Positions 1 to 15,321 of a stretch of DNA of 15,321 bases are shown here, piece by piece. Location: the IMG/VR virus record IMGVR_UViG_2684622670_000006. The stretch is one strand, 5' to 3'. Source of the DNA: a virus (lineage: Duplodnaviria; Heunggongvirae; Uroviricota; Caudoviricetes). The translations under genes and the position numbers were made by a program. Every line of letters starts with the position of its first letter. The first letter of the stretch is position 1. Below the pieces are notes generated by a model. That model was not told the origin of the DNA, ran no database searches, and saw only the letters and a program-made list of their open reading frames with translations.

Positions 1-457
1 GTACAAAAGACGCACTCACCGCGCTCAGTTCGCTGCACTGCTCGATGCGCCAGCGGCTGATCGCCTCCTGCTCCGGGTCTGCCTCGATGTTTCCGTTGAC
101 GAAGTTCACCGCATCCAGAAAACGGGCGTAAACCTTACGCCGGACCACCGTTCCGCCGACCAGACTCTGCATATCTTCCACCATGCCGGTGACCATACCG
201 TACAGGTTAGAAACCGTCAGCGTGGGGCGCGTACTGGTGCCTTTGCCATTCAGCTCAAAACCACTCCCCTGAATGGGATACGGCTGATACTGTCGCCCCT
301 GCCAGGTGACCGGCTCACCTTTTTCGTTCTGCTCATTGCAGAAAAAATAACGTTCTCCACCGACCTCTGTCAGGTCGATTTCCCAGAGCACCACGCTGGC
401 CGACTGCTCCGCACGGGTGCATTCATTCAGTGTTTCCTGCCGGATATCCTGCATCAG
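1..457 (-). CDS. L: Minor tail protein L (lambda gpL-like), N-terminal part only; 3' end lies beyond the window start
   Basis: Reverse-complement translation from the ATG at 457 reads MQDIRQETLNECTRAEQSASVVLWEIDLTEVGGERYFFCNEQNEKGEP..., matching lambda gpL as recalled. The ATG overlaps the M stop codon in an ATGA arrangement (454-457). Confidence 0.9.
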   Translation of the reverse strand, partial: MMQDIRQETLNECTRAEQSASVVLWEIDLTEVGGERYFFCNEQNEKGEPVTWQGRQYQPYPIQGSGFELNGKGTSTRPTLTVSNLYGMVTGMVEDMQSLVGGTVVRRKVYARFLDAVNFVNGNIEADPEQEAISRWRIEQCSELSAVSASFV

Positions 458-3305: not shown

Positions 3306-4127
3306 ACCGGACTCCTCCTGCGATCCCTTCTGATACTGTCATCAGCATTGCGTCATCCTCCGTCATGTCCGGGGAAGCGGGGATAACTTCATTCCCGTCC
3401 GGACCAAAACGAACACCTCCGGCAAGCCCTGCCGCTTTCTGCATCAGCACATCATCTTCAGGCTCTTCGTCAGCCCCGCGCCGGTTCAGCAGACTGAAAT
3501 CCAGCGGATGCATATCCGGATCGCTGAAAAACAGGCTGAGCACGGTGTACGTCAGCCCGGAAAAGTGCATATCCAGCAGAACATCATGAAAATAATGGGT
3601 ACTGTAAAAACGGTGCCAGTCGGCATACTCCGTGGATGACATCCCGGCAAGCATGGCACGCCAGTCGGGTCGCCCCATCTCACGCGCCAGTTTCAGGGCA
3701 AAACTCAGCTCACCGTCGAACACTTTCCCGCAGAAACAGGCTCTGCAGGCCCGGCGTCCTCTGCCTGTTCAGGGGCATCATTCACCACAAACTCATACAT
3801 ACCGGACAGCCGGTACACCACGTTTTCAGCATGAGAAATCGCCTCTGTGGGCCAGGTGGTGAGCACCTCCTGCTCAATCTGTTTAACGGCTTCATTCATG
3901 GACGGCATCTGCGTCTTCTTCGGATGGTTATGCCACAGGGACATCGCCACCACAAAAGCACCGGTTCTGATGACGTCTTCCACAGTAAACTTCCGGTTAC
4001 TGTCTGACTCCGCCTGTTCTGCCTGCCGTTTCATCAGGGCGAGATGCTCAATGCGCTGCAGGGCTGACAGTTCAGAAAGCGTGACGGTCACGCCGTTATG
4101 TTCAAATGATTCGGTTTTCAGAAACAT
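3298..4127 (-). CDS. T: Tail assembly chaperone G-T fusion, made by programmed -1 ribosomal frameshift (G frame 4127 to about 3723, then T frame to 3298)
   Basis: The G frame contains the heptamer G GGA AAG (plus-strand ctttccc at 3723-3729) a few codons before its stop. The -1 frame continues open as VFDGELSFALKLAREMGRPDWRAMLAG..., which is the 3298-3723 ORF in the track. This is the lambda G/G-T arrangement. Confidence 0.8.
3705..4127 (-). CDS. G: Tail assembly chaperone G (lambda gpG-like, 140 aa)
   Basis: ORF-track protein MFLKTESFEHNGVTVTLSELSALQRIEHLALMKRQAEQAESD...SAGKCSTVS matches lambda gpG. ATG at 4127 is preceded by GGAGAG. Confidence 0.95.
   Translation of the reverse strand: MFLKTESFEHNGVTVTLSELSALQRIEHLALMKRQAEQAESDSNRKFTVEDVIRTGAFVVAMSLWHNHPKKTQMPSMNEAVKQIEQEVLTTWPTEAISHAENVVYRLSGMYEFVVNDAPEQAEDAGPAEPVSAGKCSTVS
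3723..3729 (-). promoter_or_regulatory. Slippery heptamer GGGAAAG for the G to G-T -1 frameshift
   Basis: Minus-strand gcG GGA AAG tgt in the G frame; it sits where the G and T reading frames overlap. Confidence 0.75.
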
Positions 4128-11087: not shown

Positions 11088-11290
11088 AACCTCACTCCCA
11101 GCGGACGACGGCGACGTCGGGTTGTCCCCAGTACCGACTCCGCATCATTGATCGCCCGGTTAAGCTCATCCAGAGAAGCCGCCGTATATTCAATTCTGCG
11201 ACCATCTTTCTGGACAGACACCACCCGTTTACCGGTTAATAAATCAAGGCGCGCCTGACGCAGCGCCTGCAGTTCAGCGACTGTAACCAT
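11084..11290 (-). CDS. W: Head completion / head-tail joining protein W (lambda gpW-like, 68 aa)
   Basis: MVTVAELQALRQARLDLLTGKRVVSVQKDGRRIEYTAASL... aligns with lambda gpW (TGKRVATVQKDGRRVEFTA). ATG at 11290 is preceded by GGAGGAG. Stop overlaps the B start (ATGA). Confidence 0.9.
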   Translation of the reverse strand: MVTVAELQALRQARLDLLTGKRVVSVQKDGRRIEYTAASLDELNRAINDAESVLGTTRRRRRPLGVRL

Positions 11291-13203
11291 TCACTCCTCC
11301 GGACAGCTTCGCTGCCAGTTCTTTCAGGGTTGGCCGGGTCGTCTCTATCTTCCCGGGATTTTGCCAGTACAGCCAGATCAAGCTGCCAGCGTTGCACGGA
11401 CACACGTAATGCCGCGTAGGCATACACCAGGCAGTCCAGCGCTTCGTTACGCCGCTTTTTGTTATCCCACAGCAGACGCATCTTTCCTTTTTCCCACTTC
11501 TCCACAAGCTCTTCCGCGACCAGTTGCTGCGCCTCTGCCTGCGAAAAAATCTCCGGATCATCAGGAAAACGGATGGCATACGACGTGGATTCATCCGCAG
11601 GCGTGGGAGCGGCTTTCATACGGGCATAGAGAATTTCTTTTGCGGTGTCTGTCCCCACTTCACACAGATACACGCCCCGCTGATTGCGGGTTTTTGGCAT
11701 GGTGATCACCGGCTTACCATAGACAGATGCGCCTTTTACCGGCAGCACCCGGAAAACACCGTGTTTTTTTGACCTCTGATAAACGATTTCGCCATCGATC
11801 CCCCCGATGTCCCAGCAGACACGGGAAATGGTCATTTCGGTTCCGTCTGCATGGCGGTATTTTTTGTTGATCGCCGCATCCACACGTAACAGCGTCTCTT
11901 CCTCATCGGGACGTCCCATAATGATGATTTTATCCACCAGAAAGGCTTCCTCTCCCGGAGCCCATCCCCAGACATACATCTCAAAACGGTTTCGCTGCGA
12001 GTCAATGCCCGCCGTCAGATAAACCACCCGGGCTGGCACCGCCGCCGTGTAATGCACAACCTTATCCATCAGTACCTGGTGATCGAGTTTTTCGCCCACG
12101 GCCTCTTCCCAGGTCTCGCCCAGCGTGGTGTTAACAAAAGTTTTCAGACCGTTGGGATCTTTCAGTGCATCCAGCCAGTCATAGACAATCTGTACCCAGG
12201 TGGTGAACGGACTGTACGCCGTCCAGATATGGAAAGTGATGGAGCGCGGCGGCGGAATTTCATCCCCCCGGGCGCTGAAAAACATCAGGCCGTCACGGGT
12301 CCACATGCTCGTGTTTTCACAGATCCACCGCCCGTTACTCTGGTCAAGCTCAGACTGATGGATCACACAGCCATGATGCTCACAAAGGTAGAAAACACTT
12401 TCTGGCTTATTCTTCTCCCACTTAAGACCGAAAGGCGAGGCATCATCGCCAAATTTCAGATACTGCGCCTCCCCACAGTGCGGACAGGGCACGTAAAAAC
12501 GCATGAAATGTGCCGACTCGTTAGCGGCTTTTTCGATCTGGCAGGAGCCTTTGATTTTAGGCGTCGAGCCGCGAATGGATTTTGGCCATACAGAGCCCTC
12601 AATACGTTTATCCCCCAGCAGGGTTGGCGACCCCTCTTTTTCAACATCCGGTTCGAACGAGGAAAGCTCGTCATAACAGACCACATCCACGGATTTTTCA
12701 CGGTAGTTTTTGGCGGCAGCGCCGCCCAGGCACCAGAAGCCCACACCCGATGAAAAGCGTTTCAGCGTGAGAGTATTGTCACGATGTTTACGACCCAGCC
12801 ATGGGGAAAGGTCTTTCAGGCATGGCACGTCCCGAATCGTCGCCTCCACGTGAGACTTCATAAAATCTTCAGCGGCAGAATCCGTGGGCTGAAAAAGCAG
12901 ACTGTTTCGGGATTTATGCTCAATAAAATACCCGACCACCCCCAGCAACATCTTTGTATAGCCAACACGGGCAGATTTAATCAGATTAACAGTGCGGATC
13001 TGATCATTCCCCATACTGTTCATGATGGCGATCTGGAATGGCAGCGTTTTCCATTCGCCGTCACCGTATGAGGATTCTTTAGGCAGATAATAATTTTGAT
13101 CAGCCCATTCAACTGCCGTCATCGGTACAACCCTGACCAGAGGCTGCAGCGCAACCGAAACGGCAGCCATCATATTATTCAGTTGTTGCTCTGATATATT
13201 CAT
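11236..13203 (-). CDS. A: Terminase large subunit A (lambda gpA-like); 3' end probably frameshifted
   Basis: From the ATG at 13203 (MNISEQQLNN...TAVEWADQNYYLPKES...), collinear with lambda gpA including Walker/ATPase and nuclease regions. The last ~30 codons of the listed frame are Arg/Cys-rich and overlap W by 55 nt. A lambda-like C-terminus (TLKELAAKLSGG...) is in the +1 frame, ending at 11274. Confidence 0.85.
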   Translation of the reverse strand: MNISEQQLNNMMAAVSVALQPLVRVVPMTAVEWADQNYYLPKESSYGDGEWKTLPFQIAIMNSMGNDQIRTVNLIKSARVGYTKMLLGVVGYFIEHKSRNSLLFQPTDSAAEDFMKSHVEATIRDVPCLKDLSPWLGRKHRDNTLTLKRFSSGVGFWCLGGAAAKNYREKSVDVVCYDELSSFEPDVEKEGSPTLLGDKRIEGSVWPKSIRGSTPKIKGSCQIEKAANESAHFMRFYVPCPHCGEAQYLKFGDDASPFGLKWEKNKPESVFYLCEHHGCVIHQSELDQSNGRWICENTSMWTRDGLMFFSARGDEIPPPRSITFHIWTAYSPFTTWVQIVYDWLDALKDPNGLKTFVNTTLGETWEEAVGEKLDHQVLMDKVVHYTAAVPARVVYLTAGIDSQRNRFEMYVWGWAPGEEAFLVDKIIIMGRPDEEETLLRVDAAINKKYRHADGTEMTISRVCWDIGGIDGEIVYQRSKKHGVFRVLPVKGASVYGKPVITMPKTRNQRGVYLCEVGTDTAKEILYARMKAAPTPADESTSYAIRFPDDPEIFSQAEAQQLVAEELVEKWEKGKMRLLWDNKKRRNEALDCLVYAYAALRVSVQRWQLDLAVLAKSREDRDDPANPERTGSEAVRRSEWLQSLNCRRCVRRALIY

Positions 13204-13684
13204 CGAGTAAATCCGGTAATTTATCCCCTGCCCGCGCACACTGATTTGCCCCCTTCGCAATAAGGGTTTTCAGATGGTCAAGATGGCGCGGTGTTAAATC
13301 AGGAAACTGTCGCTGCATGGATAAAGGGATGGAATCAAGCGTACTGGATAACGCCATTGCCAGCTTACTGAGGGCAAAAATACAGAATCCGGTGTCAATA
13401 AGCTTTCCTTCGGACGCCTGATTTTTTAATTGCTGGGCGATTGCCTGTTCTTCGATCAACTTCCATCTGGCAATGAGTAACTTTTCTTCATAGTCGTCTT
13501 CGCTATCGCCATCAGGCACATCGTTTTTACTTCTCCTCAGATACGATATGTAAAAATCACGCCAGGCATCCAGATCCAGTTGTCCTCGCTTATTCGAGAC
13601 CGGAGCACCCGGCAATTTCTGCAATCTGCGAAGCTGGCGATCGGTCAGACTCAAATGCCTGGCAACTTCAGTCTGCGTAGCCAC
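13175..13684 (-). CDS. Nu1: Terminase small subunit Nu1-like (169 aa) with a non-lambda N-terminal HTH domain
   Basis: C-terminal half resembles lambda Nu1 (FCIFALSKLA...SIPLSMQRQFPDL..RHLDHLK...LPDLLDEYI). The N-terminal about 60 aa (ATQTEVARHLSLTDRQLRRLQ...) is unlike lambda. Start is a GTG at 13684 with GAGGT 5 nt upstream. It sits next to cos and overlaps the A start as in lambda. Confidence 0.85.
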   Translation of the reverse strand: MATQTEVARHLSLTDRQLRRLQKLPGAPVSNKRGQLDLDAWRDFYISYLRRSKNDVPDGDSEDDYEEKLLIARWKLIEEQAIAQQLKNQASEGKLIDTGFCIFALSKLAMALSSTLDSIPLSMQRQFPDLTPRHLDHLKTLIAKGANQCARAGDKLPDLLDEYIRATTE

Positions 13685-13731
13685 TCCTCACCTCGCAAAA
13701 ACTCTTACCTCACAATCAGCACAAAACCGGT

Positions 13732-13830
13732 CATGTCCGGTTTATATGTCTATTTTTTGCGCATGTCCGGTTCACGGAAAACCTGTTTTTATATTTTTTA
13801 TGTAGTTAACTTGCAGAGAAACCGGACATG
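13732..13830 (-). repeat. cosB-like region: three copies of a 9-bp element CATGTCCGG (two direct, one inverted) flanking an AT-rich spacer; putative small-terminase binding sites and IHF site
   Basis: catgtccgg at 13732-13740 and 13762-13770, and ccggacatg at 13822-13830. The AT-rich stretch at 13771-13821 lies between the second and third copies. The layout parallels lambda cosB (R3-I1-R2-R1) between cosN and Nu1. Confidence 0.5.
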
Positions 13831-13867
13831 GTTCCCGGAAAATTTTCATAAATAGCGAAAAACCGCG

Positions 13868-13879
13868 AGGTCGCCGCCC
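13868..13879 (-). other. cosN: the 12-nt cohesive-end sequence (minus strand GGGCGGCGACCT), with lambda-like flanking cosQ-side sequence up to about 13910
   Basis: Minus strand reads ...CGATCCGACAGGCTACG GGGCGGCGACCT CGCGGTTTTTCGCTATTTATGAAAATTTTCCGG..., almost base-for-base the lambda right-end/left-end junction as recalled. Confidence 0.8.
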
Positions 13880-14183
13880 CGTAGCCTGTCGGATCGCCGG
13901 AAAGGACCCGTTGGCCGTTCTGCTCTACTTCGTAATGGGATTTAATAGCTGAACGACAAAAGTCGTGCGAACACAGTCACACAGACCTGAATACACGTCC
14001 TGTTTCTTCCACCCCCGCACAGGACTGGCGAGCATGAGGGACAACCCCGCGAATCATTAGCGTGGTAAAAACCCGGTGTGCATCGTTTTTGATTATTCCC
14101 GCACACTCGCGCAGAAGGAATTCCCCGTCGGGCTACGGTCATGGTTAATGCGGGAATACAGCGACGATGCAGCGCAAGATATG

Positions 14184-14738
14184 TCAGGCCTGAATACCTT
14201 TATCGAATCCCGGTAATAAAAACTGTCCCTGTCTCTCCAGACGTTCCAGCTTTGCAAGCAATTGAGGTTTTTTCGTTCTCCCCCAGCGATTGAGCAGACG
14301 GCCTGACATGCTGGCGACATCCTTCTCTTTCATGTACTCCAGCATTACGGCATTTCTCTCTTCTTCAAATTGACGATGGCCAACCTGAAGCATGGCGTAC
14401 ATCCAGTTAAATGCGTTGATATAAGCAATTTTGATACGCATTGCTTCTTTTTTGGTGTAGGACATAACCAAAAGCATCAACCCATCCTTACGTAGCCGAT
14501 AGAATTTTTGTGGCTTACCATTCTGTAACTCATTGTTTTTATAGCAAACCTCAAAATTGAGTTTTGTATCAAACTCTTCAGGACAAGCAGCGATAGTTCT
14601 TTCTACATCACGCACAACGTTGTCATGTCGCTTACGAAATGCTTTCGCCACCATAAATGAATCGGTGACAGGGTCATTGTTGGTAATAAAAACCAGTTCT
14701 TTGAAATCAATGCCGTCAACGATAGTTGGATAATTCAT
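14184..14738 (-). CDS. Rha-family phage regulatory protein (184 aa), a moron between the lysis cassette and cos
   Basis: N-terminal Rha-domain motifs (DSFMVAKAFRKRHDNVVRDVER, LNFE, DGLMLLVMSYTKKEAMRIKIAYINAFN). The region is visibly more AT-rich than the flanking structural genes. No lambda counterpart at this position. Confidence 0.8.
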   Translation of the reverse strand: MNYPTIVDGIDFKELVFITNNDPVTDSFMVAKAFRKRHDNVVRDVERTIAACPEEFDTKLNFEVCYKNNELQNGKPQKFYRLRKDGLMLLVMSYTKKEAMRIKIAYINAFNWMYAMLQVGHRQFEEERNAVMLEYMKEKDVASMSGRLLNRWGRTKKPQLLAKLERLERQGQFLLPGFDKGIQA

Positions 14739-14951: not shown

Positions 14952-15321
14952 TTATTTTAAGCACTGCATCCTGATGTATTCCTGCAACGTCCTTAATGCG
15001 GCTTGATCACTGATGATTCCATCTCTGATACCGAGAACGTTTCGTCCAGCAACTGGAGAGAGTTCGACGGTGGCATCATTGCCCATGCCGGAGGCGCTGG
15101 AGGTTTTGGCTGAGGATGGCACAGGACATTTGCCTTTGACGAGCACCCGACCACCATTATTAAGCTTGCGCCGAAGAGCATCATTTTCAGCTTTCGCATC
15201 AGCTAATTCCTTCGTGTATTTAGCATCGAGTGCAGCAACATCACGCTGACGCACCTGCATGTCAGTAATTGTCGCGTTCGCCAGTTTCAGCTCTCTGGCA
15301 TTTTTGTCGCGCTGCTCTTTG
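14952..15321 (-). CDS. Rz: Inner-membrane spanin Rz (lambda Rz-like), C-terminal part; 5' end beyond the window
   Basis: Translation ...[51 protein letters not shown]... matches lambda Rz. The frame is open to the window edge. Confidence 0.9.
14993..15199 (-). CDS. Rz1: Outer-membrane spanin Rz1 (lipoprotein), embedded in the +1 frame of Rz
   Basis: [22 protein letters not shown]... has a lipobox (VVGC) followed by a Pro-rich stretch ([11 protein letters not shown]), like lambda Rz1. It lies entirely inside Rz. Confidence 0.8.

What the first reader, a model, noticed from the sequence alone, without database searches (positions are those of the whole stretch)
13685..13910. cos site with lambda-type cosN/cosQ but a different cosB repeat set, paired with a non-lambda Nu1 DNA-binding domain
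The cohesive-end sequence and its immediate flanks are essentially lambda. Between cosN and Nu1, the lambda R elements are replaced by three copies of CATGTCCGG (13732-13740 and 13762-13770 direct, 13822-13830 inverted) around an AT-rich spacer that could bind IHF. The Nu1 N-terminal HTH (ATQTEVARHLSLTDRQLRRL...) is also unlike lambda, while its C-terminal terminase-interaction half is lambda-like. This looks like a co-evolved swap of packaging specificity, as in the lambda versus phage 21 case, and predicts that lambda terminase would not recognise this cosB and vice versa.
Basis: partly seen in the sequence, partly recalled or inferred. Interest (0 to 1): 0.5.

Follow-up and report, generated by a model that had tools for sequence, protein, structure and literature searches.

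The report
Non-lambda cosB/TerS packaging-specificity cassette in prophage
This is the DNA-packaging start site (cos) of a lambda-like E. coli prophage, in which lambda's cutting site is joined to a different set of terminase-binding repeats and a matching, diverged DNA-binding domain; it looks like an uncharacterised but very common packaging specificity of an otherwise well-understood kind.

Summary
Read on the minus strand, cosQ, cosN (GGGCGGCGACCT) and the next 33 bp are almost identical to lambda (30/32 and 44/45). Similarity collapses at bp 46 (38/145). Three exact CATGTCCGGTT 11-mers lie at bp 50-60 (forward), 108-118 and 138-148 (inverted), upstream of a Nu1-like TerS. Only residues 49-150 of that TerS match Pfam Phage_Nu1.

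- The TerS family is mosaic. Near-identical C-terminal halves carry three N-terminal domain types (this one, N15-like, lambda/21-like), and the upstream repeats follow the N-terminal type.
- In five enterobacterial genera R3 and R2 keep their position and 58-bp spacing, while the spacers diverge.
- Arg at residue 20 of the recognition helix goes with ATGTCCGGTT (8/8 loci). Asn or Asp goes with A(T/C)TTCCGGTT (8/8).

The domain is not foreign. It models as a winged helix-turn-helix closest to RppC and lambda-like TerS domains, and the repeat core resembles the lambda and 21 R sites.

The element occurs in 1431 of 5426 complete E. coli genomes. It was shown as a "putative cos" for O157 Sakai Sp4/Sp14 in 2009, without cosB analysis. 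Verdict: a new member of a known kind, of moderate interest. Cross-specificity with lambda is untested.

The parts
13903..13909 (-). cosQ heptamer GGGTCCT, at bp -30..-24 from the nick (the same offset as in lambda)
   Evidence: It lies in the block ACGGGTCCTTTCCGGCGATCCGACAGGCTACG, which is 30/32 identical to the lambda right end. It is conserved in all related loci.
13868..13879 (-). cosN: the 12-nt cohesive-end sequence GGGCGGCGACCT, identical to lambda and 21
   Evidence: Invariant in 8 E. coli copies.
13835..13867 (-). bp 13-45 (the I2 region in lambda nomenclature), lambda-identical except for one base. The lambda-like block ends at bp 45/46.
   Evidence: 44/45 identity over bp 1-45, then 38/145. 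Cross-genus conservation is 0.85. Partial E. coli hits end here.
13820..13830 (-). R3: CATGTCCGGTT, bp 50-60, forward orientation. Proposed primary TerS binding site.
   Evidence: Exact repeat. Same position (bp 50-52) in all 16 loci that have this TerS N-terminal type. Cross-genus conservation is 0.91. Invariant within E. coli.
13773..13819 (-). AT-rich R3-R2 spacer (bp 61-107) with phased A-tracts. The positional equivalent of lambda I1 (IHF site) is bp 72-84, window 13796-13808.
   Evidence: On the - strand at bp 72-84, the IHF consensus WATCAANNNNTTR has 0-1 mismatch in L017, L019, L021, L023 and L025, 2 in most E. coli copies, and 2 in lambda I1. This window has 3 (TTTTATGTAGTTA), because of two private substitutions.
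13762..13772 (+). R2: CATGTCCGGTT read on the window + strand, so inverted relative to R3. It lies at bp 108-118, 58 bp from R3.
   Evidence: The 58-bp R3-R2 spacing is fixed in Escherichia, Klebsiella, Salmonella, Citrobacter and Enterobacter loci. Cross-genus conservation is 0.87.
13725..13742 (.). R1: CATGTCCGGTT on the window + strand (13732-13742, bp 138-148, same orientation as R2). It overlaps a one-mismatch forward copy, CATGACCGGTT (13735->13725), giving the imperfect palindrome AACCGGaCATGaCCGGTT.
   Evidence: Conserved in E. coli copies. It is absent, displaced or lacks the palindromic half in other genera, so it is probably accessory.
13520..13684 (-). TerS N-terminal DNA-binding domain (residues 1-55): alpha1 4-10, recognition helix alpha2 15-22 (DRQLRRLQ), wing 23-37, alpha3 38-55
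13175..13519 (-). TerS linker, coiled-coil and C-terminal TerL-binding part, which is lambda-like
   Evidence: Pfam Phage_Nu1 over residues 49-150, E 1.7e-19. 45.7% identity to lambda Nu1 over residues 73-164. About 90% nucleotide identity to the TerS of L028, which carries an N15-type N-terminus, from about codon 92 onward.
11236..13203 (-). TerL (gpA-like large terminase subunit), overlapping the TerS stop by 29 nt
   Evidence: ORF. Homologous loci carry GpA_ATPase plus GpA_nuclease domains directly after TerS.

Best explanation
The region is the cos site of a lambda-like prophage, read on the minus strand. cosQ, cosN and the 33 bp after the cohesive end are lambda-type. They serve the conserved TerL nuclease and packaging termination.

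From bp 46 onward the site carries its own cosB. R3 (CATGTCCGGTT) and an inverted R2 lie 58 bp apart across an AT-rich, IHF-type bendable spacer. An accessory R1 follows.

The winged helix-turn-helix domain at the TerS N-terminus (residues 1-55) binds these repeats, most likely as a dimer docked on R3 and R2 across the bend. This positions TerL, held by the lambda-like TerS C-terminus, to nick cosN about 50 bp away.

cosB plus the TerS N-terminal domain (bp 46 to about TerS codon 70-90) behaves as one exchangeable specificity cassette. Its specificity is predicted to differ from those of lambda, 21 and N15.

Shown by sequence and comparison: the anatomy, the conservation, the mosaicism and the covariation. 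Inferred: actual binding, IHF use and non-cross-recognition.
For: 1. Exact repeats at the stated coordinates, far above chance.
2. A sharp lambda/non-lambda boundary at bp 45/46. Partial E. coli hits also end there.
3. Mosaic TerS family. The same C-terminal half is joined to three N-terminal types. The upstream repeats follow the N-terminal type: xTxTCCGGTT with this type, GGTTGTTGT with the N15 type (L028, L030), AGATCCGTTCTT with the lambda type (L029). The right-hand joint lies at about TerS codon 72-92.
4. R3 at bp 50-52 and R2 58 bp downstream in five enterobacterial genera. Conservation is 0.91 and 0.87 for the repeats against 0.5-0.57 for the spacers. All 22 IMG/VR contigs that have this TerS show the same 47-nt gap.
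5. Within E. coli, only 1 of 26 variable cosB columns falls in the 33 repeat columns (P = 0.008).
6. Arg20 goes with ATGTCCGGTT in 8/8 loci. Asn or Asp at residue 20 goes with A(T/C)TTCCGGTT in 8/8. The variable C-terminal half of the helix pairs with the variable 5' part of the motif. This matches the published orientation of lambda TerS on R3 (PMC9026076).
7. The Aeromonas phage phiARM81ld record starts at a cos-like end. It has CATTTCCGGTT at bp 52-62, just before a TerS with the same N-terminal type.
8. The domain models as a winged HTH, closest to RppC and TerS DNA-binding domains.
9. The system works in nature. PhiR12 phages, propagated on K-12 and E. coli C, carry it at 93% identity. 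O157 Sakai Sp4 DNA, which has this cos, is packaged although its nu1 is disrupted (PMC2669165).
Against: - No binding or packaging experiment exists for these repeats.
- Sequence similarity of the N-terminal domain to lambda/21 domains is marginal (hhalign P = 0.0016, probability 16%). No PDB sequence hit was found.
- The IHF consensus match in this copy is poor: 3 mismatches, and no site within 1 mismatch.
- R1 has the opposite orientation to lambda's R1 and is not conserved across genera. Its role is unclear.
- The covariation counts are not corrected for shared ancestry.
- Non-recognition by lambda terminase is not demonstrated, and N15 shows that one-way cross-packaging is possible (PMC4669245).
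Confidence: 0.8

Rival explanations
1. The architecture and binding are as described, but the specificity is not orthogonal. This TerS, or the lambda or 21 TerS, cross-recognises the other's cosB at least in one direction, because the R cores are related.
For: The R cores are similar: CATGTCC here, CATGTCGG in 21, CGTTTCC in lambda. Relatives with Asn20 use CATTTCCGG, which matches 7 of the first 8 bases of lambda R3. N15 terminase packages lambda DNA despite different R sites (PMC4669245).
Against: Lambda and 21 discriminate more than 1000-fold on two base pairs, 56 and 59 (PMC4669245). This motif carries the 21-type base at one of those positions and the lambda-type base at the other. When aligned by the core, it also sits 3 bp closer to cosN, and lambda tolerates only 1-2 bp spacing changes (PMC4669245, PMC9026076). 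The recognition helix differs from both at most positions.
Confidence: 0.25
2. The repeats are binding sites for another factor, such as a late-gene regulator, the upstream Rha-family protein or a host protein. The true TerS sites would then lie elsewhere.
For: There are no binding data. The repeats contain palindromic CCGG/CATG elements that could suit many dimeric regulators. A Rha-family gene lies just upstream.
Against: The upstream genes differ between loci (Rha, KilA-N, DUF1378, Rz, a C10 peptidase), while the repeats stay in place. The repeats change with the TerS N-terminal type even when the TerS C-terminus is nearly the same. A base in the motif covaries with a residue of the TerS recognition helix. 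R3 occupies the same bp 48-65 interval as the experimentally defined R3 of lambda and N15 (PMC9026076). No promoter-like site was found.
Confidence: 0.04
3. This particular copy is a decaying, non-functional cos in a defective prophage.
For: Two private substitutions degrade the IHF core relative to other E. coli copies. Many such prophages are defective, and some relatives have a broken TerS (PMC2669165).
Against: The TerS and TerL reading frames are intact. cosQ, cosN, R3, R2 and R1 are all consensus. Lambda's own I1 has 2 mismatches to the IHF consensus. An identical cosB is present in an IMG/VR contig (L069).
Confidence: 0.15

Closest known systems
Phage lambda cos (cosQ-cosN-I2-R3-I1-R2-R1) with gpNu1/gpA terminase
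   Same: cosQ, cosN and bp 13-45 are nearly identical (30/32 and 44/45). The order R3, bendable AT-rich spacer, inverted R2, R1 is the same. R3 lies in the same bp 50-62 interval. TerS has an N-terminal winged HTH, a coiled coil and a lambda-like C-terminal part, followed by an overlapping gpA-like TerL.
   Different: The R sequence is CATGTCCGGTT rather than CGTTTCC(G/T)TTCT. R1 is oriented like R2, not like R3. The motif core lies 3 bp closer to cosN when aligned by the core. The TerS N-terminal domain is not detectably similar by BLAST or Pfam. TerS is 12 residues shorter.
Phage 21 cosB / gp1, the classic alternative packaging specificity to lambda
   Same: The same situation applies: identical cosQ/cosN, with different R sites matched to a different TerS recognition helix. 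The 21 R sites (CGTGTCGG, CATGTCGG) share CATGTC with this motif. Both proteins have Arg at the helix position equivalent to lambda residue 21.
   Different: The 21 gp1 N-terminal domain is clearly lambda-like. This one is only marginally similar (hhalign P = 0.0016). The motif continues as CCGGTT rather than GGnnC. R1 orientation differs.
Phage N15 / Monarch cosB (GGTTGTTGT R sites) and TerS
   Same: It is a third documented specificity, built on the same cos plan. N15-type N-terminal domains are found fused to C-terminal halves nearly identical to this window's TerS, upstream of Monarch-like triple repeats (L028, L030).
   Different: The R sequence and recognition helix are unrelated. N15 itself has a single R3.
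Putative cos and Nu1 of E. coli O157:H7 Sakai prophages Sp4/Sp14 (Asadulghani et al. 2009, PMC2669165, Fig. S8)
   Same: This is the same element type. It shows the same ...TTTTCCGGGATCCATGT... sequence after cosN and the same Nu1 N-terminus, MATQTEVARHLSLTDRQLRRLQKLPGAP. There is experimental evidence that such DNA is packaged in trans.
   Different: That paper marked only cosQ, cosN and one IHF-like element. It did not identify the cosB repeats or treat the pair as a distinct specificity.
Rpp proteins of Gram-negative PICIs (RppC, PDB 6hn7)
   Different: Rpp is a separate small protein that lacks a TerL-binding part. It acts by forming heterodimers with the helper TerS. Here the domain is part of TerS itself. 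Sequence identity is 16%.

Membership tests
Lambda-like cos site (12-nt 5' cohesive ends) | A cosN sequence with partial two-fold symmetry that matches the lambda-group cohesive end | tested here: met
   GGGCGGCGACCT is identical to lambda and 21, and the flanks are 44/45 identical.
Lambda-like cos site (12-nt 5' cohesive ends) | cosQ heptamer about 30 bp upstream of the nick | tested here: met
   GGGTCCT lies at bp -30..-24, within a block 30/32 identical to lambda.
Lambda-like cos site (12-nt 5' cohesive ends) | Virion DNA ends actually generated at this site | not testable with these tools
   No virion-end data are available. The PhiR12 records are not oriented at cos. Sp4/Sp14-type DNA has been shown to be packaged (PMC2669165).
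Complex cosB (R3-I1-R2-R1) | Three repeats downstream of cosN, with R3 at about bp 48-65 and R2 inverted across a spacer | tested here: met
   R3 is at bp 50-60, inverted R2 at 108-118 and R1 at 138-148.
Complex cosB (R3-I1-R2-R1) | R1 in the same orientation as R3 | tested here: not met
   The exact R1 copy is oriented like R2. Only a one-mismatch overlapping copy has the R3 orientation.
Complex cosB (R3-I1-R2-R1) | IHF site (I1) between R3 and R2 | tested here: inconclusive
   Relatives have consensus matches with 0-2 mismatches at bp 72-84. This copy has 3 mismatches, plus phased A-tracts.
Complex cosB (R3-I1-R2-R1) | The repeats are bound by the TerS N-terminal domain | not testable with these tools
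   Support is comparative only: the repeats follow the N-terminal type, and residue 20 covaries with a motif base.
Nu1-type terminase small subunit | Pfam Phage_Nu1 / lambda-like central and C-terminal region, followed by an overlapping gpA-type TerL | tested here: met
   PF07471 with E 1.7e-19 over residues 49-150. PHROG 57 matches full length. GpA_ATPase and GpA_nuclease domains lie downstream in homologous loci.
Nu1-type terminase small subunit | N-terminal MerR-like winged helix-turn-helix DNA-binding domain | tested here: met
Lambda or 21 packaging specificity | R-site sequence and recognition-helix residues of lambda (CGTTTCC; Q20, E24) or 21 (CGTGTCGG; E20, S24) | tested here: not met
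   The motif is CATGTCCGGTT. The helix DRQLRRLQK has R and K at the positions equivalent to lambda residues 20 and 24 (residue roles from PMC4669245).

The most novel reading that the evidence does not exclude
This would be a fourth, functionally orthogonal packaging specificity of lambda-like phages, and the most common one in pathogenic E. coli prophage pools. It would subdivide into sub-specificities (ATG-, ATT- and ACT-TCCGGTT) set largely by a single recognition-helix residue: Arg, Asn or Asp at position 20. That would give a readable protein-DNA code, one that decides which co-resident prophages can package each other's DNA.
Probability: 0.35. Interest if true: 0.55.

Novelty: new member of a known kind. 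Interest (0 to 1): 0.38.

Why it matters
Only three cosB/TerS specificities (lambda, 21, N15) have been documented experimentally among lambda-like phages (PMC4669245). This cassette occurs in about a quarter of complete E. coli genomes. It is often present in several copies per genome, in EHEC/EPEC strains (O157:H7, O55:H7, O103, O111) and in E2348/69.

Shared or distinct packaging specificity decides which defective prophages, and which virulence genes, can be mobilised by a neighbour's terminase. This was proposed for Sp4/Sp14 in O157 Sakai (PMC2669165).

The natural mosaics and the Arg20/G covariation provide a ready-made series for dissecting how a winged-HTH terminase subunit reads its site. 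They could also guide the design of orthogonal cos vectors.

The element does not change the understanding of how cos packaging works.

Tried and rejected
- The search for related loci with the wide alignment failed because no stretch was conserved enough. With the narrower alignment, the one-genome-per-species collection gave only 9 loci, mostly with other N-terminal types. I switched to the look-up of encoding contigs.
- phmmer of TerS against PDB sequences gave no meaningful hit.
- A Pfam scan of the N-terminal 59 residues gave only a sub-threshold Sigma70_r3 match.
- An IHF consensus scan allowing 1 mismatch found nothing in cosB of this window.
- The promoter scan found nothing. The terminator-like hairpins at cosN and R3 are short and were treated as incidental.
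- The IMG/VR scan for TCCGGTT-N45-49-AACCGGA returned 120 stretches before reaching its limit. Only 22 were real cos sites next to this TerS type. The rest were treated as chance matches of a 14-base pattern.
- Literature searches for a description of this cosB class found none. Only the 2009 supplementary alignment turned up.
- An extra exact CATGTCCGG at 3364-3372 does not extend to the 11-mer. I treated it as chance.
- I considered an independent recruitment of a foreign HTH, but did not adopt it. PHROG 57 covers the N-termini of this protein, lambda, 21 and N15 at the same profile positions. The hhalign alignment is in register.

Full report
**Orientation and anatomy.** The window runs opposite to the lambda map, so phage coordinates are bp = 13880 - x.
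- On the minus strand, TerS is 13684->13175 (169 aa, GTG start).
- A gpA-like TerL follows at 13203->11236.
- The cohesive-end sequence GGGCGGCGACCT is at 13879->13868.
- An Rz/Rz1 pair and a Rha-family gene lie upstream.

The whole window is the structural module of a lambda-like prophage. It matches E. coli chromosomes at 90-96% identity.

**Checking the observation.**
- In phage orientation, R3 is forward at bp 50-60, R2 is inverted at bp 108-118, and R1 is inverted at bp 138-148.
- A one-mismatch forward copy overlaps R1, which makes it an imperfect palindrome.
- With up to one mismatch, the 9-mer is over-represented: 13 matches against 4.8 expected, and 0 of 200 shuffles reach 13.

Against lambda, bp -32..-1 (with cosQ at -30..-24) is 30/32 identical and bp 1-45 is 44/45 identical. 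bp 46-190 falls to 38/145. The lambda-like block therefore ends sharply at bp 45/46.

TerS matches Pfam Phage_Nu1 only over residues 49-150. It aligns to lambda Nu1 only over residues 73-164, at 45.7% identity. All parts of the observation are confirmed.

**The repeats follow the TerS N-terminal domain.** Homologues of this TerS fall into three classes that share a very similar C-terminal half:
- this type, MATQxEVAxHLxLTxRQLRRLQKLPGAP
- an N15-like type, MAxLLNKSDMASSIGISVQAFDKWG
- a lambda/21-like type, MKVNKKELADFFGADVRTITAWQKQG

I fetched the DNA upstream of representatives and read it.
- Every locus with this N-terminal type has xTxTCCGGTT repeats.
- N15-type loci (L028 in E. coli, L030 in Klebsiella, and N15 itself) have GGTTGTTGT repeats.
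- The lambda-type locus L029 has AGATCCGTTCTT repeats.

The window's TerS gene and that of L028 are unrelated up to about codon 72-92 and about 90% identical afterwards. Partial E. coli hits stop at bp 45-48. So bp 46 to about TerS codon 70-90 behaves as one exchangeable cassette. This is the segment the Feiss laboratory swaps to change lambda to 21 or N15 specificity (PMC4669245).

**Conservation across and within species.** In loci from Escherichia, Klebsiella, Salmonella, Citrobacter and Enterobacter, R3 starts at bp 50-51 and R2 lies 58 bp downstream. Column conservation over seven diverged loci:

| Segment | Conservation |
|---|---|
| R3 | 0.91 |
| R2 | 0.87 |
| I2 | 0.85 |
| cosN | 0.79 |
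| I1 position | 0.75 |
| Spacers | 0.5-0.57 |
| R1 | 0.57 |

Further points:
- In an alignment of eight E. coli/PhiR12 copies, 26 of 149 cosB columns vary, but only one of these lies in the 33 repeat columns (hypergeometric P = 0.008).
- An IMG/VR pattern scan recovered 22 further cos sites of this type. All have the same 47-nt gap and this TerS downstream.
- The Aeromonas phage phiARM81ld record begins at a cos-like end. It has CATTTCCGGTTCCGGTT at bp 52-68, directly before a TerS with the same N-terminal type. Pseudomonas phage LPPA33 has TTCCGTTTCCGGTTCCGGTT before its TerS.

**Covariation inside the family.** Across 16 loci, residue 20 of the predicted recognition helix separates two groups.
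- Arg (helix RQLRRLQK) goes with ATGTCCGGTT in 8/8 loci.
- Asn or Asp (RQLRNLQK, RQINNLQK, RRLRDLQK, RWLRDLQK, RRVRDLQK) goes with ATTTCCGGTT or ACTTCCGGTT in 8/8 loci.

The invariant part of the helix (T14, R16) goes with the invariant TCCGGTT. The variable C-terminal half goes with the variable 5' bases. This fits the published orientation of lambda TerS on R3, where the C-terminal end of alpha2 points towards the 5' end of R3 (PMC9026076).

The same pattern holds between lambda (Asn21, T at bp 56) and 21 (Arg21, G at bp 56). However, published genetics assigns discrimination at bp 56 to residue 24. I therefore treat an Arg20-guanine contact as a hypothesis. The counts are not corrected for shared ancestry.

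**Nature of the N-terminal domain.** It is diverged rather than foreign.
- PHROG 57 (terminase small subunit) covers the N-termini of this protein, lambda Nu1, 21 gp1 and N15 gp1 at the same profile positions.
- hhalign of the two N-terminal alignments gives an in-register but weak match, P = 0.0016, with window residue i aligned to lambda residue i+1. The lambda versus N15 comparison gives 3.7e-7.
- The domain-only AlphaFold model (pLDDT 83) has alpha1 4-10, alpha2 15-22, a wing at 23-37 and alpha3 38-55.
- In a 1.84-billion-protein representative library, only 42 clusters match the domain. Almost all matches lie at residue 1 of TerS-sized proteins.

The repeat itself resembles the lambda/21 R core: CATGTCCG here, CATGTCGG in 21, CGTTTCCG in lambda. 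It has the 21-type base at the position equivalent to bp 56 and the lambda-type base at the position equivalent to bp 59.

**The IHF element.** At bp 72-84, relatives carry WATCAANNNNTTR with 0-1 mismatch. Most E. coli copies and lambda I1 have 2 mismatches. This window has 3, because of two private substitutions. Phased A-tracts remain. IHF use is inferred from position, not shown.

**Distribution and prior knowledge.**
- The cos/TerS 5' block is found in 1431 of 5426 complete E. coli genomes. In 1147 of them it is found at 80% coverage or more.
- Genomes that have it carry a median of two copies. They include O157:H7, O55:H7, O103:H2, O111 and E2348/69.
- Among 50,697 phage records, only the PhiR12 phages carry it at more than 90% identity.
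- Asadulghani et al. 2009 (PMC2669165, Fig. S8) already aligned the "putative cos" and Nu1 of Sakai Sp4/Sp14 with lambda, and these are this same type. They argued that Sp14 terminase packages Sp4 DNA. They did not identify the repeats or discuss specificity.
- Papers from the Feiss laboratory list lambda, 21 and N15 as the documented specificities. I found no description of this one.

**Verdict.** It describes a further specificity class of a well-understood system, not a new mechanism. Two things remain untested: binding of the repeats by TerS, and orthogonality to lambda and 21.

Noticed in passing
window 13796-13808 (bp 72-84): Two substitutions degrade the IHF-consensus core at the I1 position: CTACATAAAAAA, against CTATATGAAAAA in the seven other copies aligned (six E. 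coli, one PhiR12 phage). An identical cosB, including these changes, occurs in IMG/VR contig IMGVR_UViG_2713896905_000003 (L069).
   Followed up: partly
window 14952-15260 (-) and 14993-15199 (-): An Rz spanin gene (Pfam Phage_lysis) contains an embedded out-of-frame ORF. That ORF starts [19 protein letters not shown], a lipobox-like signal typical of Rz1.
   Followed up: no
window 14184-14738 (-): A Rha-family / ORF11CD3-domain gene sits between the lysis genes and cos. Related loci carry quite different genes in this slot (KilA-N, DUF1378, DUF826, a C10 peptidase), so it looks like a variable 'moron' position just upstream of cosQ.
   Followed up: partly
L085, L086, L127 (IMG/VR loci): Some prophages with this cos type have TerS interrupted right after residue 23-24, at the end of the recognition helix. 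This suggests recurrent inactivation or an insertion hotspot there. Sakai Sp4 nu1 is also disrupted by an IS element (PMC2669165).
   Followed up: no
L017, L021, L026, L086/L124/L127, L157: The same cosB/TerS N-terminal type is combined with several different cohesive-end sequences (for example GGGCGGCAGCGT, GGGCGGGAGCGG, GGGCGTCGACCT). So cosN and cosB also reassort. L017 and L028 share nearly the same cosQ-cosN-I2 block but have different cosB types.
   Followed up: partly
window 13822-13838 (-): R3 is embedded in a short inverted repeat, CCGGgaaccatgtCCGG, followed by a T-run. The scan flagged it as terminator-like. It is probably incidental.
   Followed up: no
protein P0105: A 2465-residue protein in the representative library has 19 stretches weakly similar to the TerS N-terminal domain. 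Its origin and meaning are unknown.
   Followed up: no
window 13520-13684 versus PDB 6hn7: The best structural match of the modelled TerS N-terminal domain is the PICI protein RppC, which hijacks lambda-type terminases. This raises the question of whether PICIs exist that target this TerS type or copy its cosB.
   Followed up: no
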